NCBI GenBank assembly: GCA_048885865.1
Contig: JBHLLF010000010.1
Location: forward strand, 62,915-83,510
Direction of reading: 5' to 3'
DNA from: Candidatus Hermodarchaeota archaeon
GTDB lineage: Archaea; Asgardarchaeota; Thorarchaeia; Thorarchaeales; Thorarchaeaceae
Length of the DNA stretch: 20,596 nt
Each line of letters opens with the position of its first letter. Position 1 is the first letter of the stretch. Both the position numbers and the translations under genes were made by a program. The notes under the pieces were generated by a model that saw only the letters and a list, made by a program, of their open reading frames with translations, made no database searches and was not told the origin of the DNA. This document shows, one piece after another, positions 1,807 through 15,173 of this stretch.

Positions 1807-2781
1807 AGTCTCTTGATGTGTACCGAATTTTCTCCATAATCCAACGAACTGACGTGTAATCTCTTCTGCACGATCTTCCGCCATAAACATAGTCAGCATC
1901 CCCGTAAGCTTCGAAACTAGTGGGGGATTTAGATCGAGGAAAAGTCCATTTGTAGAAATGTAGCTAGCCTCATCGAATGCCTCCCTACCATCCATAAACT
2001 CCCTACGTTCAATTGGGTTATACCCTCGTGCCTTGAGCAGTGCTTCCAGCTCTTCATGTCGCTGAAGGAGAATTATCCCCTTTCTTGGACCGATGCCTTT
2101 CACTCCTTGCCTGTGAAAATCGCATCCACATACTATAGCGAGGTCTCTCAGTTGCTCAAGATCAAGTCCAGTTGTGCTTTCCAAATCAGCAAGTGTGGCC
2201 CTGTTTATCAGTCCTTTTGACAGCTGCAATTGCTTTGTCACATGTGGACTCCCAAATAGAAGAGCATCTGAATCATTTGAAACGACTGTATTAACTAACC
2301 CGTCCCTGCATAGCACGGCAGAAAACATCTCAGCCTCTGATGGCGCTGAGATTGCAGGCACACCTAGAACGCGTGCGAGTTCGCGTGTGTGTTCGATAGC
2401 AAAGAACATTCTGAGAGACGGACTCTTCCGCAGTGGACTGGCTATCTCCTCATCGTACGGATCCCGAGTTTCTTTGAATTGTCTGTAGAAGGATTGTGCA
2501 GTGAGAATGAGTTCAGGATTTGGAGACCTCTTCGTACGCTCTGGCGGACCATCAAAAATGAGGACTGGGAGTAATGCGTTCTTCAGACACATTCTTACTA
2601 AGCTCAGAGTCATTCCAGCGTGATAAAGGGGAATTCTGCCGCTATCTCGTTTTGATGAAGGAATGACACTCACACGACGTGTCAGATAATTGGGCATGTC
2701 TATCGCGATATTGCCGGGTGTCACCTCATTCACATCGACCCATGCCCACGGGACCAGATTGTTCCAACCTGTCACACCCAT
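1789..2781 (-). CDS. FEN1/XPG-family structure-specific 5' nuclease (divergent FEN1 paralog) with C-terminal PIP box
   Basis: Family-typical N-terminus MGVTGW (ATG 2781, GGTGA SD upstream). Acidic active-site motifs IAID, IFDG, SEAE, SNDSD, GCDF. H2TH motif GVKGIGPRKG. C-terminal QETLEQWL. Confidence 0.9.
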   Translation of the reverse strand: MGVTGWNNLVPWAWVDVNEVTPGNIAIDMPNYLTRRVSVIPSSKRDSGRIPLYHAGMTLSLVRMCLKNALLPVLIFDGPPERTKRSPNPELILTAQSFYRQFKETRDPYDEEIASPLRKSPSLRMFFAIEHTRELARVLGVPAISAPSEAEMFSAVLCRDGLVNTVVSNDSDALLFGSPHVTKQLQLSKGLINRATLADLESTTGLDLEQLRDLAIVCGCDFHRQGVKGIGPRKGIILLQRHEELEALLKARGYNPIERREFMDGREAFDEASYISTNGLFLDLNPPLVSKLTGMLTMFMAEDRAEEITRQFVGLWRKFGTHQETLEQWL

Positions 2782-2792
2782 AAGAATCACCA

Positions 2793-3518
2793 CTATCTGA
2801 AGGTACGCAGGCCCTTCTTTCCTTCCACTAGAATCAATGCCTGTGATTCAGAACCTATTGTGCTGCGCTCGACCAACACACGAATCAGATTCTTCCCAAC
2901 GTCCAGTCGATCAACTCTTACCACAGAGTCAACAGCATGAGCAAGAACATTTCCACCAATGGGTATAGGTCGACCCGAATTCCAGCTTCTAGAAGAGTGA
3001 TCTGTCATTAAAAGATGAGTTCCAATCTCATTCACTAGTTCCCTTAAGACCTCAAGACAATGAAAGAGCTCTCTTTGCCTCCCTGAACTTCCTGGAGCTC
3101 CAGAAAGATTGAGAACTCCTGTTAGACTGTCCAGCACTATTACAGATACAGAACTCAAGTTTGGAATGCTTCTACTGAGATCCTCCAGGTCTGAAAGACT
3201 CAATACATTCCCGACAATTACACGGCCCAGTATCTTTGACACCTTTTTCTTTGAATTGCACATTGCTCGAGCTAGAGTGGGACTGTAATTCGAGCCCGAG
3301 TCAATATAGACCGCAAATCCCTCATCTAGTTCAGCTGCGGCAATTGCTATGGCGTGGGCGAGAGTCGTAAGGGGAGATCGCTCAGGGCCATGAAGAAGAC
3401 TTAGTTGTTCGGGTGCGAGAATGGTTCCTAGCAAGTCGTCAAGTTGCTTCGGGGCAAGCGATATTGCGGATTGTGAATTGATATCTAGTGAATCAAGTGG
3501 AGTTCGCAAAGGTGTCAT
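2793..3518 (-). CDS. RecA/RadA-fold paralog with degenerate Walker A (probably ATPase-dead)
   Basis: LHGPERSPLTT at the P-loop position (no GK), VYIDSG, Walker B IVLDSLTG, RadA-type PIGGNVLAHAVD. Start ATG 3518 (or TTG 3509) after AGGAGG; the start is uncertain. Confidence 0.8.
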   Translation of the reverse strand: MTPLRTPLDSLDINSQSAISLAPKQLDDLLGTILAPEQLSLLHGPERSPLTTLAHAIAIAAAELDEGFAVYIDSGSNYSPTLARAMCNSKKKVSKILGRVIVGNVLSLSDLEDLSRSIPNLSSVSVIVLDSLTGVLNLSGAPGSSGRQRELFHCLEVLRELVNEIGTHLLMTDHSSRSWNSGRPIPIGGNVLAHAVDSVVRVDRLDVGKNLIRVLVERSTIGSESQALILVEGKKGLRTFR

Positions 3519-4440
3519 TGGCCTCCTTAAGATTAGTATATCTGTGAAGCAATAGTGCATTGACAAGTTCTCTTTCAGGAACTCTTTGAGAGATTAGACC
3601 TGGTGCTGCTGATTCAGGATAGATGACTCTTGGACCGGTTCTACTAGGGAAAACAAACATGCGTGAAGGAGGATTCCGTATTAGGTGATTAACAGTATCC
3701 TGATCAGTAGCCAAACAATATTCTGCCATCGAAAGGCCATGTTTCTCATCAATAAGAGGGACCTTGAGTATTGCCTCCCGCAAGAGTGGTGACGCATCAT
3801 TCTTTATTGCAACGCTTGCTCTCAAGAGAGTATCTCGAATCTGATTCAAACTTGCCCTCTCAGACTTTATTTCAATGAAGAGGACGTCGCATTCATTGAA
3901 GTGAGTCAATGAAATTGGTAGAAGTGGTCGATCTCTCATCAGCATGATAACATTCTCTCGGCTTTCAGGCGGGAGTAGTGCAATATGATCTGAAACTTGC
4001 TTGCTTATCGAAAGCTCAGGGGTTCCTGGGTTTCGGCTCAGCCAAGATATTGTCGAGTCTGGGGACAAAGTTGCCATCCATTCTTTCAGGTTGCTTGAAT
4101 CATACATTACTGAACATACAATAATCGTAAGTGCAGCACCCAAGAGGGATGGAACCATCCCATAGGGCAATAGTCCAACGAACGCTACCACTGCAAGATA
4201 TCCTGAGGCTGCATAGGCGAGTATTCCTAAAATCGCTGATAGTGCATGTTTGGCCAATAGTCGTTTCAACTGAATCAACGCCGCTGTTGTGCCAATGGCA
4301 ATAATCAGTGGAATGATATTCCCATTTCTGAAGGAAATAACCACAAGTGCCACTGATGAGAGTAATTGGGCACCACCCGCCAAAGCCATTGCTCCTGCTA
4401 TCGCCAAACCGATAATCTTCAAGATTCCTCTTCCAAGCAA
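3493..4440 (-). CDS. Membrane protein of unknown function (about 4 N-terminal TM helices plus soluble C-terminal domain)
   Basis: Hydrophobic segments IIGLAIAGAMALAGGAQLLSSVALVVISF, IIPLIIAIGTTAALI, ALSAILGILAYAASGYLAVVAFVGLL, MVPSLLGAALTIIVCSVM. Start reassigned to TTG 4440 after GAGGAGTGGT (alternative TTG 4422 overlapping the upstream TGA). Confidence 0.75.
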   Translation of the reverse strand: MLGRGILKIIGLAIAGAMALAGGAQLLSSVALVVISFRNGNIIPLIIAIGTTAALIQLKRLLAKHALSAILGILAYAASGYLAVVAFVGLLPYGMVPSLLGAALTIIVCSVMYDSSNLKEWMATLSPDSTISWLSRNPGTPELSISKQVSDHIALLPPESRENVIMLMRDRPLLPISLTHFNECDVLFIEIKSERASLNQIRDTLLRASVAIKNDASPLLREAILKVPLIDEKHGLSMAEYCLATDQDTVNHLIRNPPSRMFVFPSRTGPRVIYPESAAPGLISQRVPERELVNALLLHRYTNLKEANDTFANST

Positions 4441-5105
4441 TTCGTGACCACTCCTCGGCGATATGAAAGAGAGAGATGGCAAGCTCCGTCTTTTAGGACC
4501 TTGAGCTGCGCGATTTTGCGACCATAGCCATTCTCCACAATTGACACAGACGACACTTTGCTGGAAAAATCTCTGCAAACCTTGACAGTGATATCTGCCC
4601 ATTTTGCTATTTCATTAGAAAACACTGGATGATTGCCAATCTCAGGAAGAAATCTCATTTCACTTACAACAATGACATCTATGCCTCTTTCCCAGCATAA
4701 TGCTCCTAGTATGGGCAGCGCCTCTTCAATTAGCGCCTGCCCCCAAAGGATGGGATCAGTTCTTGACATGTCAAGCACCCTTGTAATAGGGTCAATGACA
4801 ATTAGAGAGGTGTCTGGTGCTATCGTCTTGGGCAAGCTTAACATAGCATCCAGTGTCTGCTTGTGACCTTTTGTCATCATAACAGACACATTAGTCTCTA
4901 GTCCCCTGAGATGCTTGACTGTTGCCTTCAGATGAGGTATGAACCGTTTCTTTGAGTCAGCATTTATCCACTCTACATGAGATGTACGAGATGCATCTGC
5001 TGCGATAGTCGCCGCTAGCAAAGTCTTGCCGGATCCTGCAGTTCCTGTGACATGGATAAAACCTCCGAGCTCCAATGATGCGCGAAGGCTGTATTCACTA
5101 CCCAG
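4419..5105 (-). CDS. RadB-like RecA-fold ATPase (RadA paralog lacking the N-terminal HhH domain)
   Basis: Intact Walker A TGTAGSGKT, WINADS in place of YIDTE, Walker B LIVIDPIT, late motif HPVFSNEIAKWAD. Start uncertain: CTG 5105 with GGAGG 9 nt upstream, TTG 5075, or ATG 5171. Confidence 0.8.
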   Translation of the reverse strand: MGSEYSLRASLELGGFIHVTGTAGSGKTLLAATIAADASRTSHVEWINADSKKRFIPHLKATVKHLRGLETNVSVMMTKGHKQTLDAMLSLPKTIAPDTSLIVIDPITRVLDMSRTDPILWGQALIEEALPILGALCWERGIDVIVVSEMRFLPEIGNHPVFSNEIAKWADITVKVCRDFSSKVSSVSIVENGYGRKIAQLKVLKDGACHLSLSYRRGVVTNCLEEES

Positions 5106-6708
5106 AAGAGCTTCCCTCCTCAAAGTCGAATAGAGAAGCCTGAACAATCTTTGATGGCTCTTTACCTGCATTGCTCGCAGAAACAATATCTGCCCCAGTA
5201 GGAATCTCTTCCTCGGGGGTGGATTCATCTATTGTTTGAGCTTCTATTATTGGGATTTCATCAACTTGAGATTTCAGTGATGAGCGTAACATGGCATCGA
5301 GGAGATTTTGGTCAAGCTCCTCCTCGTTTGATGAATCGTCTTCTTCTGGTTTTTCGGGCGTTGCTGTTCTTGATGGAAGTTCTGCATGGAACTCGTCAGG
5401 TTCAGCTAATGATTTATCGATGGCGTCAATCGTCCTCTTCATTGCTCGATTGTTAATCTTATCATCAATCATGTCCTTTATGTCAGGTCGAAGCGCTCCA
5501 GCATTGTAAAGTGCATAACTCAGGCTACCCACATGCTGTATCATATCCTCGAAACTGAGAGGCGATGTGATGTGAGCTGTGAGCGCAACATATGATAACG
5601 CAAGTGATTCCTTTTCCGCCTGAACTCCAAGAGCATCGAATAGGCCAAGGAACCGGGCTAGACCCTCATCTCCAGCTCCTGCGGAGTTCTTTTCCTGAAT
5701 CCGGAGTGGAGCCAGTCTTACACATTCATCCAAAATTATGCAAGCAGTTTCTATAGATTCTTGAAGAGAGCCAGCTTCGATAGTGTTTGCGAGACTTGCC
5801 ATAAGGGGTGATACAACAAAGCTGATGTCCCCTAGTAGGCGAAGATTATCCTCGTTTGACTCTATGGATTGCTGAATTCTCGTTGAATCCCCGAGGGTTG
5901 AAAGCACTGCATCTTCTTCTCGTATTGCATTCTCAAATTCCTTCAAATTACTATTGGAACTAGAAAGCAGCCATAGACCTGACAGTAGTGACACTACCAC
6001 TGTAAGTACTGACGGGAGAGTTGAGCCCTGTGTTGAAAGCTGGGTAATGACTGTAGAACCAACAGCAATTAGACTCGCAGTCAAAGCCAATACTCCAAGC
6101 CATCCTCTCTTTATGCTACGCTCCAAAGAAGACCACTTCTTTTGACGCACTGCATGTTTGAGTTCAGGCAAGACTGATCGTGCATCACTTCTTCGCACAA
6201 GAGCAAATTCCTCAATGGTCACTACTCTTCCTGAATCAGTTAACCAAGACAAATCCGTGGTGGGCTTCACATTCCTAGTCACAACATAGACTGTTCTAGT
6301 TGGATGAATCAGTGAAGCCTCCCTACCTTTGCTTCCTCGTAGCAGATGCAATGACACAGTATTAAGGGGAGTCTTCAGCTCCTTTCGTTCGAGATAATCT
6401 CCCAGTCCAACATCATACAAGACAGTTTCGAACTCTCGATTGACGCTCTCCAGGAGTGCGGCTCTCATGGCCAGTCCGCTTTTGCCGAAGCGAGCCGTCC
6501 TTAGGTCCAGAACATGAACAATTTCTATATGGACTCCTCGGGTTCCAGGGATAGACTCCAAACGAACCGCACTAACCAGCCCGTTTGGATATTCACAAGT
6601 AAAGTGGCCAGTGGCTTTCAGAGCGCCAATAAGATCACCACTTGGTTTCTCAATCTCATCCCCAACACCCACATCGGGTCGTGGACCTTCGCGGCTTGAT
6701 ATAGCCAT
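5098..6708 (-). CDS. Membrane protein (2 central TM helices, helical domain, acidic low-complexity linker, terminal PIP-like motif)
   Basis: ATG 6708 with GGAGGTG SD. TM hairpin GWLGVLALTASLIAVGSTVI / LPSVLTVVVSLLSGLWLLS. Acidic tail (PEKPEEDDSSNEEELD...) ending QASLFDFEEGSSSG. Confidence 0.8.
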   Translation of the reverse strand: MAISSREGPRPDVGVGDEIEKPSGDLIGALKATGHFTCEYPNGLVSAVRLESIPGTRGVHIEIVHVLDLRTARFGKSGLAMRAALLESVNREFETVLYDVGLGDYLERKELKTPLNTVSLHLLRGSKGREASLIHPTRTVYVVTRNVKPTTDLSWLTDSGRVVTIEEFALVRRSDARSVLPELKHAVRQKKWSSLERSIKRGWLGVLALTASLIAVGSTVITQLSTQGSTLPSVLTVVVSLLSGLWLLSSSNSNLKEFENAIREEDAVLSTLGDSTRIQQSIESNEDNLRLLGDISFVVSPLMASLANTIEAGSLQESIETACIILDECVRLAPLRIQEKNSAGAGDEGLARFLGLFDALGVQAEKESLALSYVALTAHITSPLSFEDMIQHVGSLSYALYNAGALRPDIKDMIDDKINNRAMKRTIDAIDKSLAEPDEFHAELPSRTATPEKPEEDDSSNEEELDQNLLDAMLRSSLKSQVDEIPIIEAQTIDESTPEEEIPTGADIVSASNAGKEPSKIVQASLFDFEEGSSSG

Positions 6709-6709
6709 T

Positions 6710-8917
6710 TCAATTTACACCTCCAAAATCTTGCTTCCTGCTTCCTGCAAGTCTTGTTTCTAATCCTTCCATCAACCTCTGCGAAACGGCCATTGGCTGT
6801 TTCAAACCCCCCACCTCTGCAACGGCTGCTATAGCGTAGAGCAACCAATGGGCGGCTTCCAGAAGCCCATAAGCATCGCCCAGATGAAATCCTGAACTAC
6901 GGGCCAACTCCTCAAGAGGAATGTCTGTCGTGGCTGCAGCAGCGACAAGATGTTCGAAAGATTCCTCAAGTGAAGTCCCCGATTCGATTGAAACCAGATG
7001 CTTCAAGAGCCATAGCAGTGCTGTGCTCTCCTCGACTCTTGGAAGTACCGCTAATAGCTCACGAATTGTTGGAATGCTGAGATAAAGCCGGTTTGCAATC
7101 CTACCCATTCGTGTAGGCTTCAGCTTTCCATCTATTCCGCCCTCGATTAAGCCCAGCCTGATGAGAAGCTCACTTGGACTTAGCTCGCTCAGCGCGACTG
7201 GAATTACATAATCTGCAAGGCTGCCTAGCTCTCTTGCTGCATACAGTCCTAAAGCAACCAAGTGAGAACATAGAACTCCATGTTGATCAATAGGTCTAGA
7301 GCATGAGCACTGCGGACCCTCCACTACACCATCAGCAGAAAGACGAGCCGAATACCTACAGGTATAGTGTCCTTCCTCCCATGCTGCTACGATGCCACCA
7401 ATAACACTATCATTTGTCTCCCTAAGGCTAATGCTCCCTAGAAGTCCCAGACGAGCTGGACGCACAGTGTCTGACAAGGCATGCTTCTCGATTGCAGATT
7501 CCGCGCTTATTTCACCCAATTGAATAACTCGCATAGGAGACCTCGTATCTCTTATTCCAGTAAATACCAGGTAGGAATCACCTAGAAAGCCGTCTGCGAT
7601 GTCTTCCAAGGTTGCTTCATCCAAAGCATCTAGTGCAACAAGCAGTTGCTCAGGCAGTGTCAACGATTCACCGAGTTTGCTAACCACACGATCATACTTT
7701 GGAAAGAGGATTTTTGTTGACGACTCATTATTCAATGACGAATCAAAGTATCTCTTTTCTACATCTTCAGCTTCTCCGGAGCTTCCAACTAGAATAATCC
7801 CAAACCCAGCCGTATCATAGCCAGGCCGACCAGCTCGACCTAGCATTTGATGAACAGAGTTGGCAGGAAGCATTTCTCGGTGATTTCCTGGAGACCGCAC
7901 ATTAGTAAGAACAACCGTCCTCGCAGGGAGATCCATTCCTGCCGCGAGTGTTGTAGTCGCGCAAATCACTCGAACTTTTCCGCGGAGAAATAGCTCCTCA
8001 ACAAGCCGCCGAGCCCGATTTCCTAGACCTGCATGATGATAAGCTGTGCCATCATGAAGAAGGGTTCTGAGTTCGGGGGGTATAGTGACATTCCAATTCT
8101 CAACTGACTCGAGCTCTGTGTCGAGATCTTCTTTTTCATTTCTAGTGAAATGTCGTCCAACATCCCCTGAAAGACGTATAGCCTGCGATTCAGCCTCGCG
8201 TCTTGTCCGATGAAAGACAATTGCCTGGCCATCACCTTGGACTGTCGTCATAACCAGTTGGCGAAGAACTCGCTCCTTGTGTTTTGAAGAGATAACACGA
8301 TAGACTAAGGGCACAGGACGTTCTTCTGATTCAACAAGAGTACAGCCGAGCCACTCAGCCAGCTCATCTGGTGAGCCAACTGTTGCTGAAAGCCCAATCA
8401 ACTGAAAACTGTCAACCATTCGCTTGAACCTGATTATGATAGATTCTAGGCGGGCACCCCTTCCAGAATCAGAAATTGTCTGAATCTCATCTATGACTAA
8501 GGAGCCGATAGAATTTAGCCAGGTAGTCTTTCTTCTCAGCAAAGAATCCGCCTTTTCGTATGTTGTCACAATGACATCATACTCCGAAAGACTCTCACCA
8601 TCATTCGAAAAATCCCCTGTACTCACACCAATTCGTAGGCCCAGAGGCTCATACCTATCTATCAGAATTCCAGACACCTGCACAGCGAGTGCCTTCAGAG
8701 GGACTAGATAGATTCCCTTCTTTCCAGTAAGTGCCGCTCTTAGGAGAGCCATCTCACCTACCAATGTCTTGCCAGAGCCAGTTGGACTGCAGACCAAAAT
8801 GCTTGCGCCATCCAGAAGGCCACGTTCGATCGAAGTTTTCTGAATCCCTCTCGGTTTAAGCCCCAGCTGATGGAGAAGCCTATGCACTTGTTCCTGAACA
8901 TCTGCTACAACCGTCAT
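6710..8917 (-). CDS. Ski2-like/Hel308-family SF2 helicase with inserted SWIM zinc finger, lacking the C-terminal HhH domain
   Basis: Q motif PRGIQ, I SPTGSGKT, Ia VPLKALA, Ib TTYEKAD, II IDEIQ, III LSAT, IV VFHRTRREAE, HHAGL, V ATTTLAAGMDLPA, VI QMLGRAGRPG. SWIM CSC-x10-CSH. Winged-helix-like LKPTRMGRIANRLYL. ATGA overlap with the upstream gene. Confidence 0.92.
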   Translation of the reverse strand: MTVVADVQEQVHRLLHQLGLKPRGIQKTSIERGLLDGASILVCSPTGSGKTLVGEMALLRAALTGKKGIYLVPLKALAVQVSGILIDRYEPLGLRIGVSTGDFSNDGESLSEYDVIVTTYEKADSLLRRKTTWLNSIGSLVIDEIQTISDSGRGARLESIIIRFKRMVDSFQLIGLSATVGSPDELAEWLGCTLVESEERPVPLVYRVISSKHKERVLRQLVMTTVQGDGQAIVFHRTRREAESQAIRLSGDVGRHFTRNEKEDLDTELESVENWNVTIPPELRTLLHDGTAYHHAGLGNRARRLVEELFLRGKVRVICATTTLAAGMDLPARTVVLTNVRSPGNHREMLPANSVHQMLGRAGRPGYDTAGFGIILVGSSGEAEDVEKRYFDSSLNNESSTKILFPKYDRVVSKLGESLTLPEQLLVALDALDEATLEDIADGFLGDSYLVFTGIRDTRSPMRVIQLGEISAESAIEKHALSDTVRPARLGLLGSISLRETNDSVIGGIVAAWEEGHYTCRYSARLSADGVVEGPQCSCSRPIDQHGVLCSHLVALGLYAARELGSLADYVIPVALSELSPSELLIRLGLIEGGIDGKLKPTRMGRIANRLYLSIPTIRELLAVLPRVEESTALLWLLKHLVSIESGTSLEESFEHLVAAAATTDIPLEELARSSGFHLGDAYGLLEAAHWLLYAIAAVAEVGGLKQPMAVSQRLMEGLETRLAGSRKQDFGGVN

Positions 8918-11271
8918 CTTTCTGATTCATCCCTCTGTGTCACTTGATGAAGAGCCATGCTGCCCTTCATGGTGATTCTGTAATTTGTGTACGAAACCGC
9001 CCCATGGACCTCATGACCCCTAAGTATCATACCTGATTTTTCCAGCCTAGCAAGCACACCACTGATGTCGGGATCCTCATTCACATCTCCTGAAAGGAGA
9101 AATTTCCTCATTGCCTCCTCTGTCAGTGGTTCATACCTTTCAAGCAGTCGAAGCATCTTGATAGCTGTAGTTTTCTGTCCTCCAGCGACTCGATCAATCA
9201 GTGAATCGCTAAAGGCCACTCCTTCAGTGGGAAACTCCTGAGGAATGAAATCAGAAATGCGTTTCTCCATCTCCTCAGGATGGAGCATAGTAAGATGGGC
9301 CGCTTCATCCAGCATAACTGGCATGCATGTTTCGCCCTGGTTTCGGACCAACAGTACTACTCCGTCAGGCATAACTCTCAGGTAAGATGTTTCTCTGGAT
9401 GATTGACGCGCCTTGCTATGCATGCCCGACGAAACAACACTGATGCCAAGCAATTCCACGGCTGTCTTAATGTCTGGACTCTCGCGAAGTCGATGAGTGA
9501 TGCATGAGCTCAATCTGCCAATGGCACCAGGCGACATATCCACTGGATGATCCAGCGTGACAATCGTGGGACCTCTTTGTAACATATCCCGAAGCATCAT
9601 CTCACTCCAAGAGTCCCTCTTCATATATCGCCGGTTTCGAATCCTCATGTTCTCCGCATTCTCAAGTATGACAACGAGATTCTGGTCCTGTTGGAGTCCT
9701 GAAAGCTTGATGCACACAAGATCGAAAGCGAATTTCTCCATTGGCAAATATCCTTGGGATAAAATCAATACGCTCAGATTAGCCTGCGACAGATCGCGCA
9801 TGGCAATTGTCTGAGAACCATAGAAGGAACGTGCCGCAGTTCCTTGGTGTAGAGACCTTATTGCCTCATAACCTGAAACACTTCTATCAGATGGCTTTCG
9901 CTCGTTCTGCGCTGCTGCCTCTGAGTATGTATCCATGACATCTGGTGTCTGGGTTAGTTGAACGTCAGCCACAGTTGTGTTGCCTAACGCAATGGCACGA
10001 TTGATTGCAAGTTCAAGATCAGTTGCACCGCGAAGGTCAGTCCCCGCAATTACCTCTAGAGCAGTCATCAATTTGGACACATAGATATGTCTTGGAAGCC
10101 CCTCTGCATCCATAGGATTTAGTACTAGATCTTTGCCAAGCTCAAATGATACTGCACCTTCAGAAAGAGATGCGAAATTCTTTGCATCTCGTTCATTGCT
10201 CGCGATAATGACCCGTTTTCCATGTGAAAGAAGCTGTTTAACAATGAGAGTGAGTGTATGCCTTCTTTCTTCCAAAGTCCCTCCGCAGACTAATAGTCCA
10301 GATTGAATATCCTCATGTGATAGCCCAGCAGCAGGTCCAGGCCGAAGGGTTTCGGGATTTATCACGCGGCCAATGCAATAATCTCCTGCTCTGGGCTTTA
10401 TGGGTGCAAGGAACTCACCTGGAACATTTGATCCAATCTCAGATGCAAGCTCACTAGGAATCTGTATCAACCACTCTGAGAGTTCGGTTCCTGCGGCATA
10501 GAATAGTGGAAGCCGAGGTGCCATGTTCATCGCCCGCATATTCGAAGCTAAAGATTCGGGCTTTGCTTTTGACCAGTTTCCATCCGGAACTGCTGCCTTA
10601 ATCGATGATTCGAATTTTTGAACCTGATCGATATCCTGTGAGTGCCCCAAAATCGAAACTCGGACGGACCAAAGGCCTCCGCGCCTGGTCATATATGCAT
10701 CCAATCCACCGCTTGAAAGATAGTTCAAGTAGCCATCCAATCGGGATGATAGACGCTCTTCCTCCACGATGGATGAGGATTCTTCTGGCCTTACTATCAC
10801 TGATAAACAGAATCCCTTTGAGCTATCGATGGCTCTAACGAGTGCACTCACATTCCCGACTAATAGAGGGCTAGCCCATGGCAGCTCCAATCCTATCACA
10901 TTGCGATTGCCAGATGGCGTTTTACACTGAACGACATTGTGTTCTCCATTCACTTCGATAGATATATCGCTCTCAGGAACACGAATCCATTCTGATTCTT
11001 CTAGGGAGTGAACCTCTTGTGAGGTCCTCAGTTTGGGTACTAATATCGTTACAAGAAGACTACCGAGGGAAACCAGAGCAAGACTCCATGGCAGTGCCGC
11101 AAGAATGACTGCTACAGTGATTGCTGTGATTGCATCACGGCCGTGAGAAGGTTTCACTCTACGGTCATCCCATTGAAGATCAATCCCACCACTCACAGTC
11201 ATGGTGGGCTGAGATATCTCCTTCAGTGGATCAACCTCGGGCTCAGTACCGAGAATCAGACGCTTACCCAA
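8914..11271 (-). CDS. Membrane-anchored HerA/VirB4(CedB)-like P-loop protein with degenerate Walker motifs and C-terminal winged helix
   Basis: Start TTG 11271 after AGGAGG (8-nt spacer). N-terminal TM hairpin AITAITVAVILAALPWSLALVSLGSLLVTILV. HerA-like order of motifs: YCIGRVI..., LLVCGGTLEERRHT (Walker A position), LVLNPMD, LVVILENAEN (Walker B position), TLDHPVDM, CITHRL, MPDGVVLL. wHTH VLARLEKSGMI...YRITMKG. Confidence 0.72.
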   Translation of the reverse strand: MGKRLILGTEPEVDPLKEISQPTMTVSGGIDLQWDDRRVKPSHGRDAITAITVAVILAALPWSLALVSLGSLLVTILVPKLRTSQEVHSLEESEWIRVPESDISIEVNGEHNVVQCKTPSGNRNVIGLELPWASPLLVGNVSALVRAIDSSKGFCLSVIVRPEESSSIVEEERLSSRLDGYLNYLSSGGLDAYMTRRGGLWSVRVSILGHSQDIDQVQKFESSIKAAVPDGNWSKAKPESLASNMRAMNMAPRLPLFYAAGTELSEWLIQIPSELASEIGSNVPGEFLAPIKPRAGDYCIGRVINPETLRPGPAAGLSHEDIQSGLLVCGGTLEERRHTLTLIVKQLLSHGKRVIIASNERDAKNFASLSEGAVSFELGKDLVLNPMDAEGLPRHIYVSKLMTALEVIAGTDLRGATDLELAINRAIALGNTTVADVQLTQTPDVMDTYSEAAAQNERKPSDRSVSGYEAIRSLHQGTAARSFYGSQTIAMRDLSQANLSVLILSQGYLPMEKFAFDLVCIKLSGLQQDQNLVVILENAENMRIRNRRYMKRDSWSEMMLRDMLQRGPTIVTLDHPVDMSPGAIGRLSSCITHRLRESPDIKTAVELLGISVVSSGMHSKARQSSRETSYLRVMPDGVVLLVRNQGETCMPVMLDEAAHLTMLHPEEMEKRISDFIPQEFPTEGVAFSDSLIDRVAGGQKTTAIKMLRLLERYEPLTEEAMRKFLLSGDVNEDPDISGVLARLEKSGMILRGHEVHGAVSYTNYRITMKGSMALHQVTQRDESER

Positions 11272-11566
11272 CTGAAGTTCCTCCTGCTGTTGAAATTGAT
11301 TTAATCTGGCGTCGCAGCATCTCAAGCACGCGCTGCAACCTCTCCGCGTAGACGGCATCTGATCCTGACACGAGGAGCAAATTCTCTCCAACAAGAAGAA
11401 TCTCTGGCATGTTTCCAAGATCTGATGATCCATGAGCAACGAGTGTCGGGCATTTTGTCAGCACCAGCCAATTATAGCCATGGCCCACCTCAAGTGAATG
11501 CATCACTGCTTCGTGTGTCACGCCAAATGGAAGCTCGATGGCTATCCTATCACCTGATTTGAGCAT
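11264..11566 (-). CDS. Small hypothetical protein (about 100 aa)
   Basis: ATG 11566 follows GGAGGTG. Fills the gap between two operon genes and overlaps both; its 3' end carries the SD of the next gene. Confidence 0.7.
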   Translation of the reverse strand: MLKSGDRIAIELPFGVTHEAVMHSLEVGHGYNWLVLTKCPTLVAHGSSDLGNMPEILLVGENLLLVSGSDAVYAERLQRVLEMLRRQIKSISTAGGTSVG

Positions 11567-12149
11567 ATGGCTCAACACCTCCTGAGGTCACCATCAGCAA
11601 ATCGTCCAACCCTGCTAGATCAATAGGCATGTGAGGATAGGCAGCTCTCATTGAACTCTCAAGGACTGTCGCGTCAGCAACAATTTCATCTGCGATCGAA
11701 GATGCCTTCTTTATCCCATCTAGGAACCGAATGCCCCTTCTCGCAACAAGCATCCCCGCACGGGTGATACCATCTCCTGCGGGTCTGCAGATAAAGAACC
11801 GAACCTCTCCATTCTTCTTCCCATCATATCGCGCATGAAGAGCTCGGAGCACTTTAGATGCTGAATGGCTAAGGTCCAGACCGATAGGTACACTTGTCAT
11901 CAATCGTCCTGCTATGACCTCCAGTGTAAATGGCCAAAGAATGGCAAGGACGCCTCGCTGATCATCCCAAACAATGAGAGGTGGCTGATAGTTCCTCCAA
12001 CTCAGAACCACGAATCCTACAGATATTATGGTGACTAAAGACAGAAGAACTTCCAGATTTCCCCAATACATCCAGATTCCCAGAACAGCACCAAGTATCA
12101 ATGTGCTGAGGCCAATCCATCTAATCTCCCATCGCTCATACCATGCCAA
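11550..12149 (-). CDS. Membrane protein (2 N-terminal TM helices) whose soluble domain resembles the N-terminal domain of the downstream HerA/VirB4-like protein
   Basis: TTG 12149 after GGAGG (9-nt spacer). TM segments WIGLSTLILGAVLGIWMYW and VLLSLVTIISVGFVVLSW. Motif VLESSMRAAYP. Confidence 0.78.
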   Translation of the reverse strand: MAWYERWEIRWIGLSTLILGAVLGIWMYWGNLEVLLSLVTIISVGFVVLSWRNYQPPLIVWDDQRGVLAILWPFTLEVIAGRLMTSVPIGLDLSHSASKVLRALHARYDGKKNGEVRFFICRPAGDGITRAGMLVARRGIRFLDGIKKASSIADEIVADATVLESSMRAAYPHMPIDLAGLDDLLMVTSGGVEPYAQIR

Positions 12150-12150
12150 G

Positions 12151-14106
12151 TCAACTTCCCTCCCTTAATGCTATGAACTGTGAAATAGCTGTCTTCAGCT
12201 CAGCAACATCCCCAAAGGGCCAGATATCAGCTACCATGTCATCGCCGAACACCCGGACATGCTTGAGAAAACGCTTGTCTAAAAGTACGACAATACCCCA
12301 GTCCTCAGGCGCTCTTCTTAGTCTTCCAAGAACTTGGGCAACCTGACGAATAGATGGGACTAGCGCTCCGTAATAGTAACCGGCTCCTTCTCCGAAGCGA
12401 GTGTCATAGAACTCCTGCAATGCCCTTTGGTAGCTCGTAGGAGGGGAGAATGGAATCCCGACTCCAATAATCAGATCTATCATACTAGAGCCGCCTTTCA
12501 CCAGGTCAATCCCCTCTGAGAATTTCCCTCCGAAAACACAGAAGATGGCGTGAGGGCCAATTTCCAAAGCTTCTGCGACAGTTTCAATGCGGTCACCTCT
12601 CTCTTCGATCAGTATTCCGCGATATCCAGAGTCAATGCCGTAGCTTAAGACCTCATGAAGGATCTTGTAACTTGGAAACGCAATGAGCGCACTCTTATTT
12701 GCGGGAACTGTTGTGAGTACTATTTTTATTCTCTCAGCTAGTGCACGCCAGAGATCAGGGCTTCTTGCCTGGTACTTTGTTGTAAGCTCCCTGTCAATGA
12801 GCACTAGTCTTGTCGACCGTGGATAAGGACTTGCCAAGTCCTCTGTTATTGCACCTCCAACTCCCAATAACCTTGCATAATGGTCTAGGGGTCTCAGGGT
12901 TCCAGACATCAGCAGCGCAGACTTTGCACCCCTGAGGACAGGCGCAGTTAGACCGGATGCGTTTAGTGGGCGAATCATTAGTGTAGCTTTCGAAGCGGTC
13001 AATGCTTCATCCCAAGACCGTTTCACGTTGAGTGTCACATGCCATCCTTCACTTCTGGTGGATAGGTTGGCAACAAAGAGGAACTCAACAAGCCTGTCGA
13101 GGGGAGTTTCCATTGAAACAGCCTCCTCGGGATCACCAATACTAGGGCTAGTAGTTTCATGCATGAGTCGCAAATCAGACTCCTTGATGAATCTAGGAGC
13201 CACATCCCATTTAGCGAGTGTACGCTCTGATCTCCTGTTCATCCCATCAAGATTGAGCATCATCGTTTCATGGAGAAAGTCCACTGCCTCTCCAATCCAG
13301 TCTATTCGGGTCTCCTTGACAATCTCTGCTTTGTGGTCTCTTAGCCATCGGAGGTCTTCACCATTCAGCCTGGCTGTTTCCGAGTCGAGCGCATGGTCTG
13401 ACAGATTGTGGGCTTCATCAACAAGTAGGTCCGCATCATGGAGTGAAATTCCCAATGATGTAAGAAGAGCCTCCCGTACCCGTGACCTAAACATATAGCT
13501 ATATGGTCCAATAATGACCTTGCTCTCTCTCGCACACCAGCGCATCACTTCATATGGGCACACACCTTCGGCACTGCAGAGGTCTTCCACTCTTTCACGT
13601 GTCACAACACCAGTGCTTAGCAATTCCTCAACGCGTTCTCGAACCCACTCTCTGATGACACTTCGACCATCGCTGGAGTTCTTTCGATAGACATTGTGAT
13701 AGTACGTACACTGCCCTGTCTTGATCATCGACGCGCAGGCTCGCATAAAGCCTGTAGAGGTGTCGGAGTCAATCTCGCTTCTAATTGGACACATATGGAT
13801 CCTCGACACCATCGTTGTGGCTGTAAGTTCAGGCATCATTGCCCTCAGAACGTCAAGTTCAATCTCGAACACTCTTGACTGACTGTGAGTTCTTGTCAGC
13901 ACGATCAACCTTGAGCTCGAATCACTACCTCTTGCAGCAAGATATCCTGAAAGGACAGCCACAGTTTTACCGACCCCGCAATCGGCAGAGAGCAATCCCA
14001 CTGTCTGTGACGAAAAGACCTCAGCAGCAAACCGCACAGCCTTGTCCTGATGCAGTCTAGGTGTATAAGGAAACCATGCGAGAGGGTCAGTGATAGCAGT
14101 ACTCAA
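12151..14106 (-). CDS. XPD/Rad3/DinG-family Fe-S cluster 5'-3' DNA helicase
   Basis: Q motif YTPRLHQ, I ADCGVGKT, Ia LTRTHSQ. Four Fe-S cysteines (SRIHMCP, RACA, GQCTYY, GVCPYE). II LVDEAHNL, III MSGTL, AFPSY, GGKFSEGIDL, VGIPF, VI QVLGRLRRAPEDWG...LLDKRF. TTG start with GGAGG, TTGA overlap. Confidence 0.95.
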   Translation of the reverse strand: MSTAITDPLAWFPYTPRLHQDKAVRFAAEVFSSQTVGLLSADCGVGKTVAVLSGYLAARGSDSSSRLIVLTRTHSQSRVFEIELDVLRAMMPELTATTMVSRIHMCPIRSEIDSDTSTGFMRACASMIKTGQCTYYHNVYRKNSSDGRSVIREWVRERVEELLSTGVVTRERVEDLCSAEGVCPYEVMRWCARESKVIIGPYSYMFRSRVREALLTSLGISLHDADLLVDEAHNLSDHALDSETARLNGEDLRWLRDHKAEIVKETRIDWIGEAVDFLHETMMLNLDGMNRRSERTLAKWDVAPRFIKESDLRLMHETTSPSIGDPEEAVSMETPLDRLVEFLFVANLSTRSEGWHVTLNVKRSWDEALTASKATLMIRPLNASGLTAPVLRGAKSALLMSGTLRPLDHYARLLGVGGAITEDLASPYPRSTRLVLIDRELTTKYQARSPDLWRALAERIKIVLTTVPANKSALIAFPSYKILHEVLSYGIDSGYRGILIEERGDRIETVAEALEIGPHAIFCVFGGKFSEGIDLVKGGSSMIDLIIGVGIPFSPPTSYQRALQEFYDTRFGEGAGYYYGALVPSIRQVAQVLGRLRRAPEDWGIVVLLDKRFLKHVRVFGDDMVADIWPFGDVAELKTAISQFIALREGS

Positions 14107-14729
14107 TAATCAGCCTCCAGATGTAGACAGGACTCACTCGTGTGGATTCTGAACCGTAGAGAGAAGTACTTCTGCAGAAGCTGATGGAACTGCCACATCA
14201 ATGAAGGCGATTTGTATCCTATTTCCTTGTTTGCCATTCGCTCCACAATCTCTGGACTGAACCCTTTCTGGCGAGCTATCTTCCAGAACCAAGCTTCAAC
14301 CTCTCGCTTAGTGGAGTACATGTGACTAACTGAGCTTTCAATTAGGTCAGTGAGAGATTGCACTGCCTCCTTTGGTTTGCTGGGCACCTGTGATACTCTC
14401 ACTCCTGTTGGTAGATAGACGGCAATTCCCTCAGTGCTGTCTAGATGTATCTCATGAGGGACTCCCTTTGTCCCTCTTAATGTTTCAAGGAGAGAAAGTA
14501 GTCTCGGAAGTTGCGGCAGCGCAGGTTTACTGAGGTCAGGACTTCTCCATTCGACTCTAGTGACGACATAGATCTCAGGATCTGGACCTGCACATTTCTG
14601 CAGGACTGTCACTCGATGTGACGTTTCCCTCATGAGAAGATTCACGAGATTGATCATTGTGTTATTTGCGACAGTTGGTGGGGCTCGCGGGACCCAGACG
14701 TAGTTGCTCTCGGATTCGATACCCGCCAA
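14103..14729 (-). CDS. Hypothetical soluble protein (208 aa)
   Basis: TTG start immediately after the upstream TAG, with GGAGG 8 nt upstream; its stop overlaps the XPD start. No motif recognised. Confidence 0.72.
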   Translation of the reverse strand: MAGIESESNYVWVPRAPPTVANNTMINLVNLLMRETSHRVTVLQKCAGPDPEIYVVTRVEWRSPDLSKPALPQLPRLLSLLETLRGTKGVPHEIHLDSTEGIAVYLPTGVRVSQVPSKPKEAVQSLTDLIESSVSHMYSTKREVEAWFWKIARQKGFSPEIVERMANKEIGYKSPSLMWQFHQLLQKYFSLRFRIHTSESCLHLEADY

Positions 14730-15173
14730 CTACCACGCCTCCATTGGAATGGTGACTAGCACACCGTTCTTGATTACCTCGCCCTCTGAAACGAGGGAGT
14801 CAAGGAAGGTCATTGCACGAGAGATATCGATGCCTGCATCGCTGCATTCTCTCATGACATCTTCAATCGAAACTGGTCGCCCTCTGTTGAGGTCAACTAG
14901 CGCTTCGACGATATAATAGACACGCCTCTTAATGCCCAAGCCCCTCCCTCCGCCCCGAGGTTTGGCATTCTGGCGCGATTCTAGCACAAGCTCACGGACA
15001 CTCGCTTGGGCTTCTTGAATTGTAACTGCATAGATTGTTCCAGGTGCATGAAGAATCAGACTCCTGCATAGGCTGCATCTTGACTCCTCTTGCTCATTCT
15101 CGACAGCTGTGTATCCTATGTTGGTGCAACTGGGGCACTGGTAAACTCTGAACATCCCTCGTTCTGAGGTCAC
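14730..15173 (-). CDS. Zn-ribbon (CxxC...CxxC) plus C-terminal winged-helix protein (DUF1922/DUF5817-like architecture)
   Basis: YQCPSC...SRCSLC, a Gly/basic linker (KPRGGGRGLGIKRR), and wHTH-like IVEALVDLNRGRPVSIEDVMRECSDAGIDISRAMTFLDSLVSEGEV. GTGA overlap with the radA stop. The family name is from recall only. Confidence 0.78.
   Translation of the reverse strand: MTSERGMFRVYQCPSCTNIGYTAVENEQEESRCSLCRSLILHAPGTIYAVTIQEAQASVRELVLESRQNAKPRGGGRGLGIKRRVYYIVEALVDLNRGRPVSIEDVMRECSDAGIDISRAMTFLDSLVSEGEVIKNGVLVTIPMEAW

What the first reader, a model, noticed from the sequence alone, without database searches (positions are those of the whole stretch)
7190..7540. SWIM zinc finger inserted inside a Hel308/Ski2-like helicase
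Seen: C-S-C-x10-C-S-H-L-V-A (7262-7309), preceded by beta-rich IGGIVAAWEEGHYTCRYSARL, interrupts the winged-helix region after motif VI. Known: CxC-xn-CxH is the SWIM signature; canonical Hel308 has none; eukaryotic SWS1/Shu2 use SWIM to work with Rad51 paralogs. Inference: the insert docks the RecA-fold paralogs of this operon onto the helicase.
Basis: partly seen in the sequence, partly recalled or inferred. Interest (0 to 1): 0.78.

Follow-up and report, generated by a model that had tools for sequence, protein, structure and literature searches.

The report
SWIM zinc finger inside Asgard Hel308-like helicase
A Thorarchaeota DNA-repair helicase carries a roughly 120-residue SWIM-type zinc-finger module spliced into its winged-helix domain; this marks an undescribed Asgard-only branch of the Hel308/HELQ family that sits in a recombination gene cluster, but what the module binds remains untested.

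Summary
The gene at 6710-8917 (-) encodes a 735-aa Hel308-like helicase. Residues 457-578 (window 7184-7549) are an insertion in the winged-helix domain, with C537-S-C539-x10-C550-S-H552 at 7262-7309.

- **Conservation:** the four ligand residues are unchanged in every Thorarchaeota ortholog with the region present (49 of 50 species loci; the other contig is cut short) and in relatives from other Asgard classes. The insert is as conserved as the ATPase core.
- **Absent elsewhere:** canonical Hel308 lacks it, including the canonical copy in this genome.
- **SWIM call:** Pfam SWIM is below threshold here (11.6 bits against 19.6). Support comes from the AlphaFold model (four strands, knuckle, helix), from a fold search of 48,161 PDB chains whose only hit at Z 5 or more is the SWIM region of ZSWIM8 (Z 6.3), and from a paralog in the same genome that passes the Pfam cut-off.
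- **Lineage:** SWIM-bearing helicases separate from canonical Hel308 on one fully supported branch.
- **Context:** in Thorarchaeota the gene lies in a conserved cluster of RadA, XPD, a VirB4-like protein, the helicase, membrane proteins, RecA-like paralogs and FEN1.

The proposed docking of RecA-fold paralogs is plausible but untested. The insert is older and more widespread than those paralogs. I rate it a new variant of a known kind, of moderate to high interest.

The parts
6710..8917 (-). Gene for a 735-aa Hel308-like helicase (P0001), SWIM-bearing family A. Walker A is PTGSGKT and motif II is DEIQ. There is no HhH domain 5.
   Evidence: The start overlaps the upstream gene by 4 nt (8914-8917), and the downstream gene's stop codon ends one base below this gene's (6708 vs 6710).
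8375..8845 (-). RecA1 / DEAD domain (residues 25-181)
   Evidence: Pfam PF00270, E 5.5e-29
7820..8050 (-). RecA2 / Helicase_C match (residues 290-366), including motif VI HQMLGRAGRPG
   Evidence: Pfam PF00271, E 1.7e-10
7550..7723 (-). N-terminal part of the winged-helix domain (residues 399-456; helices 421-432, 437-447, 449-456)
   Evidence: AlphaFold2 model; alignment with canonical Hel308
7184..7549 (-). SWIM-type insert (residues 457-578): linker with two short helices, a four-stranded antiparallel sheet, a zinc knuckle and two helices
   Evidence: No counterpart in 24 canonical Hel308 proteins. Insert-only model has pLDDT 88. Top structural match is ZSWIM8 residues 114-214, Z 6.3. Identity to orthologs is 61%, against 62-64% for the RecA core.
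7307..7435 (-). Four beta strands of the insert (residues 495-537), with conserved R499, E500, G507, G508, R521, S523, R525 and G534
7262..7309 (-). Putative zinc ligands C537-x-C539-x10-C550-x-H552. CxC follows the last strand and CxH opens helix 551-564.
   Evidence: Invariant in 43 of 43 insert segments, including three non-Thorarchaeota. Chance occurrence 3 in 20,000 shuffles.
7082..7183 (-). C-terminal part of the winged-helix domain (residues 579-612): recognition helix, wing hairpin and LKPTRMGRIANRLYL
   Evidence: Aligns to A. fulgidus Hel308 residues 473-504; model
6728..7081 (-). Ratchet domain 4 (residues 613-730). The protein ends about 5 residues later, with no domain 5.
   Evidence: Weak Pfam Helicase_dom4_arc match; aligns to A. 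fulgidus Hel308 residues 577-631; model
8914..11439 (-). Upstream 841-aa gene, translationally coupled, with no Pfam, NCBIfam or PDB sequence match. Homologs lie beside SWIM-helicases in 5 non-Thorarchaeota loci.
   Evidence: earlier finding e1-5646430 (not re-tested here)
5098..6708 (-). Downstream 536-aa protein with hydrophobic, TM-like stretches and an acidic tail; no Pfam match
   Evidence: A protein of similar layout follows the helicase in L118.
4419..5228 (-). 269-aa P-loop protein, weakly RecA/RadB-like
   Evidence: Pfam AAA_25 E 4e-5; NCBIfam RadB E 1.2e-3; both below cut-off
2793..3566 (-). 257-aa RadA/Rad51-core paralog (RadB-like)
   Evidence: Pfam Rad51 37.1 bits, above cut-off; PDB RadA E 1.3e-7 and RAD51D E 1e-3
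15170..16237 (-). RadA recombinase in the same co-oriented cluster
   Evidence: Identified by eye from the ORF translation and named RadA without a family scan. Orthologs share 52-99% identity and are syntenic in Thorarchaeota loci. A RadA-family gene lies within 10 kb of the SWIM-helicase in 8 of 15 non-Thorarchaeota loci.

Best explanation
The stretch encodes a SWIM-type, presumably zinc-binding, domain of about 120 residues inserted between the second and third helices of the winged-helix domain. The host protein is a divergent, catalytically intact Hel308 paralog, which I call family A.

**Shown here**
- The insert is real, is under constraint as strong as the ATPase core, and has a SWIM-like fold and ligand set.
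- It defines an Asgard-specific helicase lineage that coexists with canonical Hel308.
- That lineage is genomically tied to recombination genes: RadA, XPD, FEN1, RecA-fold paralogs and a VirB4-like protein.

**Inferred**
- The module projects from the winged-helix domain much as the arch domain of Mtr4/Ski2 does.
- It serves as the docking and specificity surface that recruits this helicase to its recombination partners.
- The most likely partner class is RadA-family (RecA-fold) proteins. This would work like Shu2/SWS1 with Rad51 paralogs, or HELQ with BCDX2.
- The motor would then act on RadA filaments or D-loops rather than as a general repair helicase.

**My odds**
- A real SWIM-type metal-binding domain: about 0.85.
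- Primarily a protein-docking surface: about 0.5.
- The partner is a RadA-family protein: about 0.35.
- The partners are specifically the two short paralogs of this operon: about 0.2.
For: **Motif and constraint**
- CxC-x10-CxH is invariant in 29 orthologs, in the 49 Thorarchaeota species loci that cover the region, and in 43 of 43 insert segments.
- The insert is 61% identical across orthologs. The RecA core is 62-64% and the ratchet 48%.

**Fold**
- The whole-protein model (pLDDT 87.4) and the insert-only model (pLDDT 88) both give four strands, a knuckle and a helix.
- An unbiased VIA-align search of 48,161 PDB chains put ZSWIM8 residues 114-214 on top: Z 6.3, rmsd 3.5 A, 88 residues aligned. 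The next hit had Z 4.2.
- The second-look search agreed, with the next hit at Z 3.3. The ZSWIM8 SWIM domain is residues 172-208 (PMC13083262).

**Sequence chain to Pfam SWIM**
- SWIM is the Pfam family hit by the most insert segments (8 of 43, best E 5e-4).
- Relatives score 18.2 (P0066), 17.7 (L051) and 19.8 bits (P0073) against a cut-off of 19.6.
- The genome's own paralog B scores 20.4 bits in the six-frame search. It aligns colinearly with P0001 through the insert, CSC to CSC and CxH to CxH (E 5e-26).

**Helicase identity**
- Foldseek matches the whole model best to archaeal Hel308/Hjm (E 1e-36 to 1e-34, TM 0.66-0.76).
- Full-length canonical Hel308 genes coexist in this genome and in five other Asgard genomes.
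- Trees separate SWIM-bearing from canonical sequences by one branch with SH-aLRT 100, also when only RecA-core columns are used.

**Context**
- The order g250-g155-RadA-g147-g208-XPD-g199-g841-helicase-g536-g269-g369-RadB-like-FEN1 is kept in about 45 Thorarchaeota species loci.
- Eight of 15 non-Thorarchaeota SWIM-helicase loci have a RadA-family gene within 10 kb. None of 24 canonical Hel308 loci do.

**Precedents from papers**
- The Shu2 SWIM domain contacts the Rad51 paralog Shu1 (PMC5727457).
- The ZSWIM8 SWIM domain organises a protein assembly.
- HELQ binds the BCDX2 RAD51-paralog complex (PMC13623763).
- The Mtr4/Ski2 arch is inserted in the winged-helix domain (PMC10946056).

**Charge**
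- The insert is not basic, with a mean net charge of -1.6. This weakly favours protein binding over DNA binding.
Against: - Pfam SWIM is below the gathering score for this protein (11.6 bits against 19.6; E 0.22-0.35).
- Foldseek found nothing for the insert (best E 0.06).
- Z 6.3 lies in the range the tool warns can reflect a common arrangement.
- Neither zinc nor any interface was tested. No coordinates or PAE were available, so the arch-like projection is inferred from the insertion site only.
- Partner identity is open. The short RecA paralogs are missing next to the SWIM-helicase in the sister family L118 and in most other classes.
- Paralog B keeps a textbook SWIM but has no recombination neighbours.
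- The loci used as the control are mostly related Thermoplasmata, so they are not independent.
- Synteny shows a shared pathway, not physical contact.
Confidence: 0.45

Rival explanations
1. The insert is a nucleic-acid-recognition arch. It would bind the duplex, branch point or displaced strand at the winged-helix side of the helicase ring and set substrate preference (D-loops, forks), as the Mtr4 arch/KOW helps bind and unwind structured RNA. No protein partner would be needed.
For: - The Hel308 winged-helix domain is itself implicated in substrate recognition (PMC13623763, citing Northall 2017).
- The Mtr4 arch promotes unwinding and contacts RNA (PMC4267639).
- SWIM was originally predicted to bind DNA or proteins (quoted in PMC5727457).
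- R463, R499, R521 and R525 are conserved on the linker and sheet.
- The sheet weakly resembles PUR repeats, which bind single-stranded nucleic acid (Z about 3).
- This reading explains why the insert is kept in lineages without adjacent RecA paralogs.
Against: - The insert carries a net negative charge on average (-1.6; -4 in this protein).
- Both solved SWIM domains consulted act through protein contacts.
- The PUR resemblance is within noise.
- The pseudo-helicase paralog B keeps the SWIM although its motor motifs are gone. That fits a scaffold role better than an unwinding aid.
Confidence: 0.25
2. The SWIM module tethers the helicase to the membrane-associated part of the operon: the VirB4/HerA-like 841-aa protein encoded immediately upstream and/or the 536-aa membrane protein immediately downstream. 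The helicase would then be the motor of a membrane-bound DNA-handling machine whose own ATPase-like subunit is inactive.
For: - The helicase gene is translationally coupled to both neighbours (4-nt overlap at 8914-8917; adjacent stops at 6708 and 6710).
- The trio of VirB4-like gene, helicase and membrane protein with an acidic tail is kept even in the sister family L118, where the RecA paralogs are absent.
- Homologs of the 841-aa protein lie near SWIM-helicases in 5 non-Thorarchaeota loci.
Against: - I did not verify the VirB4-like fold. Sequence searches of the 841-aa protein found nothing.
- Ten of 15 non-Thorarchaeota loci show no homolog of the 841-aa protein nearby.
- There is no precedent for SWIM binding to VirB4-like proteins.
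Confidence: 0.15
3. The cysteines form a purely structural staple, or a redox- or iron-sensing site such as an Fe-S cluster using the extra conserved C520, with no docking function.
For: - A fifth cysteine, C520, on the neighbouring strand is conserved in 38 of 43 insert segments.
- Fe-S domains are common in repair helicases; an XPD gene lies in this same operon.
Against: - The invariant set is Cys3-His with SWIM spacing.
- C520 is not invariant, and paralog B has no Cys at the aligned position.
- A 120-residue insert conserved as strongly as the ATPase core over its whole length is more than a staple would need.
Confidence: 0.07

Closest known systems
Archaeal Hel308/Hjm (PDB 2p6r, 2va8, 2zj8, 9b15) and eukaryotic HELQ / POLQ helicase domain
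   Same: It has two RecA domains, a winged-helix domain and a ratchet domain in the same order. These are the best whole-model Foldseek matches (E 1e-36 to 1e-34, TM 0.66-0.76). It shares 35-37% identity over the motor with this genome's canonical Hel308. HELQ is known to bind RAD51 paralogs.
   Different: - A 120-residue SWIM insert sits in the winged-helix domain.
- Motif II is DEIQ rather than DExH.
- The HhH domain 5, the brake and annealing element, is absent.
- NCBIfam Hel308 models match only residues 1-396 and score far below their cut-offs (342 against 887 bits).
- It forms a separate tree lineage.
- It is encoded next to RadA, XPD and FEN1, whereas 0 of 24 canonical loci are.
SWIM zinc finger (Pfam PF04434): ZSWIM8 (PDB 9rwz), Shu2/SWS1
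   Same: It has the CxCxnCxH signature with n = 10, inside the typical range. CxC follows a beta strand and CxH opens a helix. ZSWIM8 residues 114-214 are the best structural match (Z 6.3). Shu2/SWS1 act in recombination with Rad51 paralogs.
   Different: - This protein scores below the Pfam gathering threshold.
- It shows no detectable sequence similarity to Shu2 or ZSWIM8 (an hmmsearch of PDB at E up to 10 gave only unrelated hits).
- Here the domain is an internal insertion in a helicase, not a free-standing subunit or an E3-ligase module.
- Shu2 has a 59-residue insertion within the motif and did not appear among the structural matches.
Arch (stalk/KOW) domain of Mtr4 and Ski2
   Same: It is an accessory module inserted into the winged-helix domain of a Ski2-like helicase (PMC10946056). 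The Mtr4 arch is a partner and substrate docking platform that promotes unwinding (PMC4267639).
   Different: The fold is unrelated: SWIM sheet plus helices here, against coiled stalk plus KOW barrel there. The likely substrate is DNA recombination intermediates, not RNA. I did not verify the exact insertion point or spatial position, because no model coordinates were available. This is an analogy, not homology.
Bacterial SWI2/SNF2-family ATPases with a SWIM domain (the proteins that gave SWIM its name)
   Same: A SWIM finger is combined with an SF2 ATPase motor in one polypeptide. This comparison rests on my own knowledge of the Makarova, Aravind and Koonin 2002 description and was not tested here.
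   Different: The SF2 family differs (Snf2 rather than Ski2/Hel308). In those proteins SWIM lies outside the motor rather than inserted in a winged-helix domain. Their taxa and gene context also differ.

Membership tests
SWIM zinc finger (PF04434) | CxCxnCxH signature with n of about 6-25, conserved among orthologs | tested here: met
   C537-x-C539-x10-C550-x-H552 is invariant in 43 of 43 insert segments and in the 49 Thorarchaeota species loci that cover the region. Non-Thorarchaeota relatives keep CxC...CxH with n = 10-27.
SWIM zinc finger (PF04434) | Score at or above the Pfam gathering threshold (19.6 bits) | tested here: not met
   This protein scores 10.9-11.6 bits, E 0.22-0.35. Homologous inserts reach 17.7, 18.2 and 19.8 bits. 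The genome's paralog B reaches 20.4 bits in the six-frame search but 16.1 bits as a whole protein. Membership therefore rests on a transitive chain plus the fold.
SWIM zinc finger (PF04434) | Fold: beta strands leading to a zinc knuckle, with the last two ligands at the start of an alpha helix; similarity to a solved SWIM domain | tested here: met
   Models show strands 495-537, the CxC knuckle and helix 551-564. ZSWIM8 residues 114-214, which contain its SWIM domain at 172-208, are the top match among 48,161 chains at Z 6.3, with the next at 4.2. Z is modest, so this is supportive rather than conclusive. Shu2 was not listed, which is inconclusive.
SWIM zinc finger (PF04434) | Binds one zinc ion through the Cys3-His set | not testable with these tools
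   This needs metal analysis of purified protein.
Hel308/Hjm (NCBIfam NF040935, NF002654) | Full-length match above the equivalog cut-off | tested here: not met
   The best score is 342 bits against a cut-off of 887, covering residues 25-396 only. The genome's other copy, L080, scores 842 bits end to end, also just under the 887 cut-off.
Hel308/Hjm (NCBIfam NF040935, NF002654) | Five-domain architecture: RecA1, RecA2, winged helix, ratchet, HhH domain 5 | tested here: not met
   Domains 1-4 are present. The protein ends about 5 residues after the last ratchet helix and has no HhH match. Basal relatives L128 and L120 keep HHH_5.
Ski2-like SF2 helicases (superfamily level) | Intact motor motifs: Walker A GSGKT, motif II DExH/Q, motif VI QxxGRAGR | tested here: met
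   PTGSGKT, IDEIQ and HQMLGRAGRPG are present and conserved. ATPase and helicase activity were not tested.
Shu2/SWS1 family | Detectable homology to Shu2/SWS1 beyond the four ligands, and complex formation with Rad51 paralogs | tested here: inconclusive
   There is no PDB sequence hit to Shu2 at E up to 10, and Shu2 is absent from the listed structural matches. Complex formation cannot be tested here.

The most novel reading that the evidence does not exclude
Asgard archaea have an ancient, dedicated recombination-mediator helicase: a Hel308/HELQ-type motor whose built-in SWIM domain grips RadA-family proteins. One polypeptide would then hold what eukaryotes later split between HELQ-BCDX2 and the free-standing SWIM proteins Shu2/SWS1 with their Rad51 paralogs. 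In Thorarchaeota it would work within a membrane-anchored complex (VirB4-like pseudo-ATPase plus membrane proteins) that couples incoming or damaged DNA to RadA-dependent recombination.
Probability: 0.12. Interest if true: 0.88.

Novelty: new variant of a known kind. Interest (0 to 1): 0.62.

Why it matters
Hel308/HELQ helicases control recombination from archaea to humans, and how they are directed to RAD51/RadA and its paralogs is an open question (PMC13623763). This work identifies a second Hel308-type lineage, found here only in Asgard genomes, that coexists with the canonical enzyme. It carries a conserved SWIM module exactly where Mtr4/Ski2 carry their partner-docking arch, and it is encoded beside RadA, XPD, FEN1 and RecA-fold paralogs.

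[quoted passage not shown] The family therefore offers a tractable prokaryotic system for asking how a SWIM domain couples a motor to recombinase paralogs. Standard annotation misses the domain: none of the 61 homologs carries PF04434 in precomputed Pfam. In the held paper library only one paper mentions both SWIM and Hel308, and it is unrelated.

Tried and rejected
- **Pfam SWIM on this protein and on pieces of it:** below threshold.
- **hmmsearch of the insert profile against PDB sequences:** only a chance hit to fructosyl amine oxidase, E 0.78.
- **Foldseek of the insert model against PDB:** nothing better than E 0.06. Only the Foldseek-independent VIA-align search found ZSWIM8. Shu2 was not among the listed rows of either VIA search.
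- **ESM Atlas on residues 490-580:** the top named cluster is a SWIM-containing cluster, but the score is only 0.75, so it is a lead only.
- **The look-up of encoding contigs:** I obtained gene context for non-Thorarchaeota relatives through the genome search and the fetch from genomes instead.
- **SWIM replaces the lost domain 5:** rejected. Basal family members L128 and L120 have both SWIM and HHH_5.
- **The insert is a Thorarchaeota-only novelty:** rejected. It also occurs in proteins labelled Hermodarchaeia, Ranarchaeia, Asgardarchaeum and LC30, and 97 of 400 Asgard genomes match the insert profile.
- **SWIM always travels with short RecA paralogs:** rejected.
- **Sequence searches of the 841-aa neighbour (Pfam, NCBIfam, PDB):** nothing found.
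- **First shuffle test:** timed out and was repeated with fewer shuffles.
- **Full-length tree:** the careful search did not finish, so the quick trees are reported.
Full report
**What is at the site.** The window comes from a Thorarchaeota (Asgard) genome. All close homologs carry that label. The finding lies inside ORF 6710-8917 on the minus strand, a 735-aa protein (P0001). Pfam finds DEAD (residues 25-181) and Helicase_C (290-366). NCBIfam Hel308 models match only residues 1-396, at 342 bits against an 887-bit cut-off. PDB sequence matches to Hel308 likewise cover mainly the motor. Short further matches fall at 598-629 (the winged-helix LKPTxxG...LY element) and 669-723 (ratchet).

The protein has only seven cysteines. 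The pattern arises in 3 of 20,000 shuffles of the sequence.

**The stretch is a conserved insertion.** In an alignment with canonical Hel308 proteins from other archaea, residues about 457-578 have no counterpart. The canonical recognition helix and wing resume at 581-612. The four ligand residues are invariant in 29 orthologs at 50-83% identity. They are also unchanged in the 49 Thorarchaeota species loci that cover the region and in 43 of 43 aligned insert segments, three of them non-Thorarchaeota. The insert is 61% identical across orthologs. That equals the RecA domains (62-64%) and exceeds the ratchet (48%).

**Fold.**
- AlphaFold2 on the whole protein gives pLDDT 87.4 and pTM 0.82. The insert is predicted as two short helices, four antiparallel strands (495-501, 505-512, 516-526, 532-537), a knuckle carrying CxC, and helices 551-564 and 566-575, with CxH at the start of the first.
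- The insert modelled alone with 43 sequences gives the same elements at pLDDT 88.
- The whole model matches archaeal Hel308/Hjm best (E 1e-36 to 1e-34, TM 0.66-0.76).
- For the insert, Foldseek found nothing.
- The Foldseek-independent VIA-align search of 48,161 PDB chains returned a single hit with Z of 5 or more: ZSWIM8 residues 114-214, with Z 6.3, rmsd 3.5 A and 88 aligned residues. The next hit had Z 4.2.
- The second-look search gave the same top hit with the next at Z 3.3.
- The ZSWIM8 SWIM domain is residues 172-208 (PMC13083262). That lies in rough register with the model's ligands.
- Z 6.3 is modest. I treat it as support, not proof.

**Sequence evidence for SWIM.**
- The Pfam SWIM model is below threshold for this protein (10.9-11.6 bits against 19.6).
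- It is nevertheless the family hit by the most insert segments (8 of 43, best E 5e-4).
- Homologous inserts score 17.7 (L051), 18.2 (P0066) and 19.8 bits (P0073).
- In a six-frame search of the window's own genome, the single best SWIM hit is a paralog on contig C13, at 20.4 bits and over the cut-off.
- That 738-aa paralog aligns colinearly with P0001 through the insert (25% identity, E 5e-26), with CSC on CSC and CxH on CxH.
- The SWIM call therefore rests on signature, fold and a transitive sequence chain, not on a direct Pfam hit.

**A distinct helicase lineage.**
- A profile of the insert searched against 1.84 billion representative proteins found only 14 hits. Apart from one repeat-protein hit that is probably spurious (P0072) and a short fragment without the motif (P0067), every hit carries CxC...CxH. 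Those with enough sequence to scan are Hel308-like helicases or fragments of them, and the full-length ones place the motif at the same position. The labels include Thorarchaeota, Hermodarchaeia and Ranarchaeia.
- Among 400 Asgard genomes, 97 match the insert profile: 65 of 85 in the window's own family and a patchy set elsewhere. The counts outside that family are lower bounds, because the inserts diverge quickly.
- This genome and five other Asgard genomes also encode a full-length canonical Hel308.
- Quick maximum-likelihood trees separate SWIM-bearing from canonical sequences by one branch with SH-aLRT 100. This also holds when only RecA-core columns are used, so the insert itself cannot drive the grouping. 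The trees are unrooted.
- Basal members (L128, L120) keep the HhH domain 5. Thorarchaeota and other members of about 735 aa have lost it. The insertion therefore predates that loss and does not replace domain 5.
- Thorarchaeota members almost always have DEIQ as motif II. Most other members have DEIH.
- Many Thorarchaeota genomes hold a second SWIM-bearing paralog, family B, with Walker A and motif II destroyed but a textbook SWIM motif CSCESWKYQG..HRLCKH.

**Context.**
- In about 45 Thorarchaeota species loci the order is conserved: g250-g155-RadA-g147-g208-XPD-g199-g841-helicase-g536-g269-g369-RadB-like-FEN1.
- The 257-aa product of 2793-3566 is a clear RadA/Rad51-core paralog. The 269-aa product of 4419-5228 is only weakly RecA-like.
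- Outside Thorarchaeota, 8 of 15 SWIM-helicase loci have a RadA-family gene within 10 kb. Five have FEN1 and five have a homolog of the 841-aa protein.
- None of 24 canonical Hel308 loci from other archaea has any of these genes. Those control loci are related to one another.
- The sister family (L118) keeps RadA...XPD...841-aa-like-helicase. Downstream it has a membrane protein with an acidic tail, a polytopic membrane protein and a giant ORF, and no RecA paralogs.
- Family B sits among PAC2, PUA and succinyl-CoA ligase genes.

**Mechanism.** Shown: a conserved SWIM-type module in the winged-helix domain of a recombination-linked Hel308 paralog. The rest is inferred.
- Both solved SWIM domains I consulted work through protein contacts. 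Shu2 binds the Rad51 paralog Shu1 (PMC5727457). ZSWIM8 SWIM organises a multi-protein superdomain.
- HELQ binds the BCDX2 paralog complex (PMC13623763).
- Mtr4 and Ski2 carry their partner and substrate docking arch as an insertion in the same domain (PMC10946056; PMC4267639).
- The insert is slightly acidic.
- I therefore favour a docking platform, most likely for RadA-family proteins.
They cannot be the ancestral reason for the insert.
- Rivals are a DNA-recognition arch, a tether to the VirB4-like and membrane proteins flanking the gene, and a structural or redox metal site.

**Limits.**
- No multimer prediction, model coordinates or PAE were available.
- The full-length tree is a quick search only.

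**Novelty.** The library holds no paper describing a SWIM domain in Hel308. Only one paper contains both words, and it is unrelated. The 2024 survey of archaeal Ski2-like helicases and the 2026 HELQ/Hel308 review do not mention such a domain. Precomputed Pfam for all 61 homologs lacks PF04434. Combinations of SWIM with SF2 ATPases are known in Snf2-type proteins. I therefore class this as a new variant of a known kind.

Noticed in passing
Own genome contig C13:65958-67529 (locus L082, ORF 1138-3354; also L117:8596-10812): A second SWIM-bearing Hel308-like paralog of 738 aa. It has lost Walker A (ATYDYDEAYQ in place of PTGSGKT) and motif II (IDRLD) but keeps a textbook SWIM motif CSCESWKYQGIRRHRLCKH at the same winged-helix position. 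It is conserved in many Thorarchaeota genomes and sits among PAC2, PUA and succinyl-CoA ligase genes. It is probably a pseudo-helicase scaffold.
   Followed up: partly
window 1789-17453 (minus strand): A run of 14 co-oriented genes keeps the same order in about 45 Thorarchaeota species loci down to about 50% identity: g250, g155, RadA, g147, g208, XPD, g199, the 841-aa protein, the SWIM helicase, the 536-aa protein, the 269-aa P-loop protein, the 369-aa protein, the RadB-like protein and FEN1/XPG.
   Followed up: partly
L118:3-9490 (sister family of the window's family): Downstream of the SWIM-helicase lie three genes: a 503-aa protein with hydrophobic, TM-like stretches and an acidic tail, a 196-aa hydrophobic protein that looks polytopic, and an ORF of more than 2463 aa that runs off the locus. 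The 503-aa protein has the same layout as the window's 536-aa protein but no detectable sequence similarity. No short RecA paralogs are present.
   Followed up: no
window 8480-8491 (motif II): Motif II is IDEIQ (DExQ) in the window and in nearly all Thorarchaeota family-A members. L035 has DEVH, and most non-Thorarchaeota SWIM-helicases have DEIH.
   Followed up: partly
window 7358-7360 (C520): A fifth cysteine on the strand next to the zinc knuckle is conserved in 38 of 43 insert segments, but paralog B has no Cys at the aligned position. Its role is unknown.
   Followed up: no
L128:3058-5451 and L120:9422-11938: Deep-branching SWIM-helicases from other Asgard families keep the HhH domain 5 (Pfam HHH_5 at 46 and 25 bits). 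The Thorarchaeota enzyme has lost it, so loss of the brake domain is secondary within this lineage.
   Followed up: partly
window 7307-7435 (insert beta sheet): The four-stranded sheet weakly resembles PUR repeats, which bind single-stranded nucleic acid (8chu_B Z 3.1, 3nm7_A Z 2.9). This is within noise and is a lead only.
   Followed up: no
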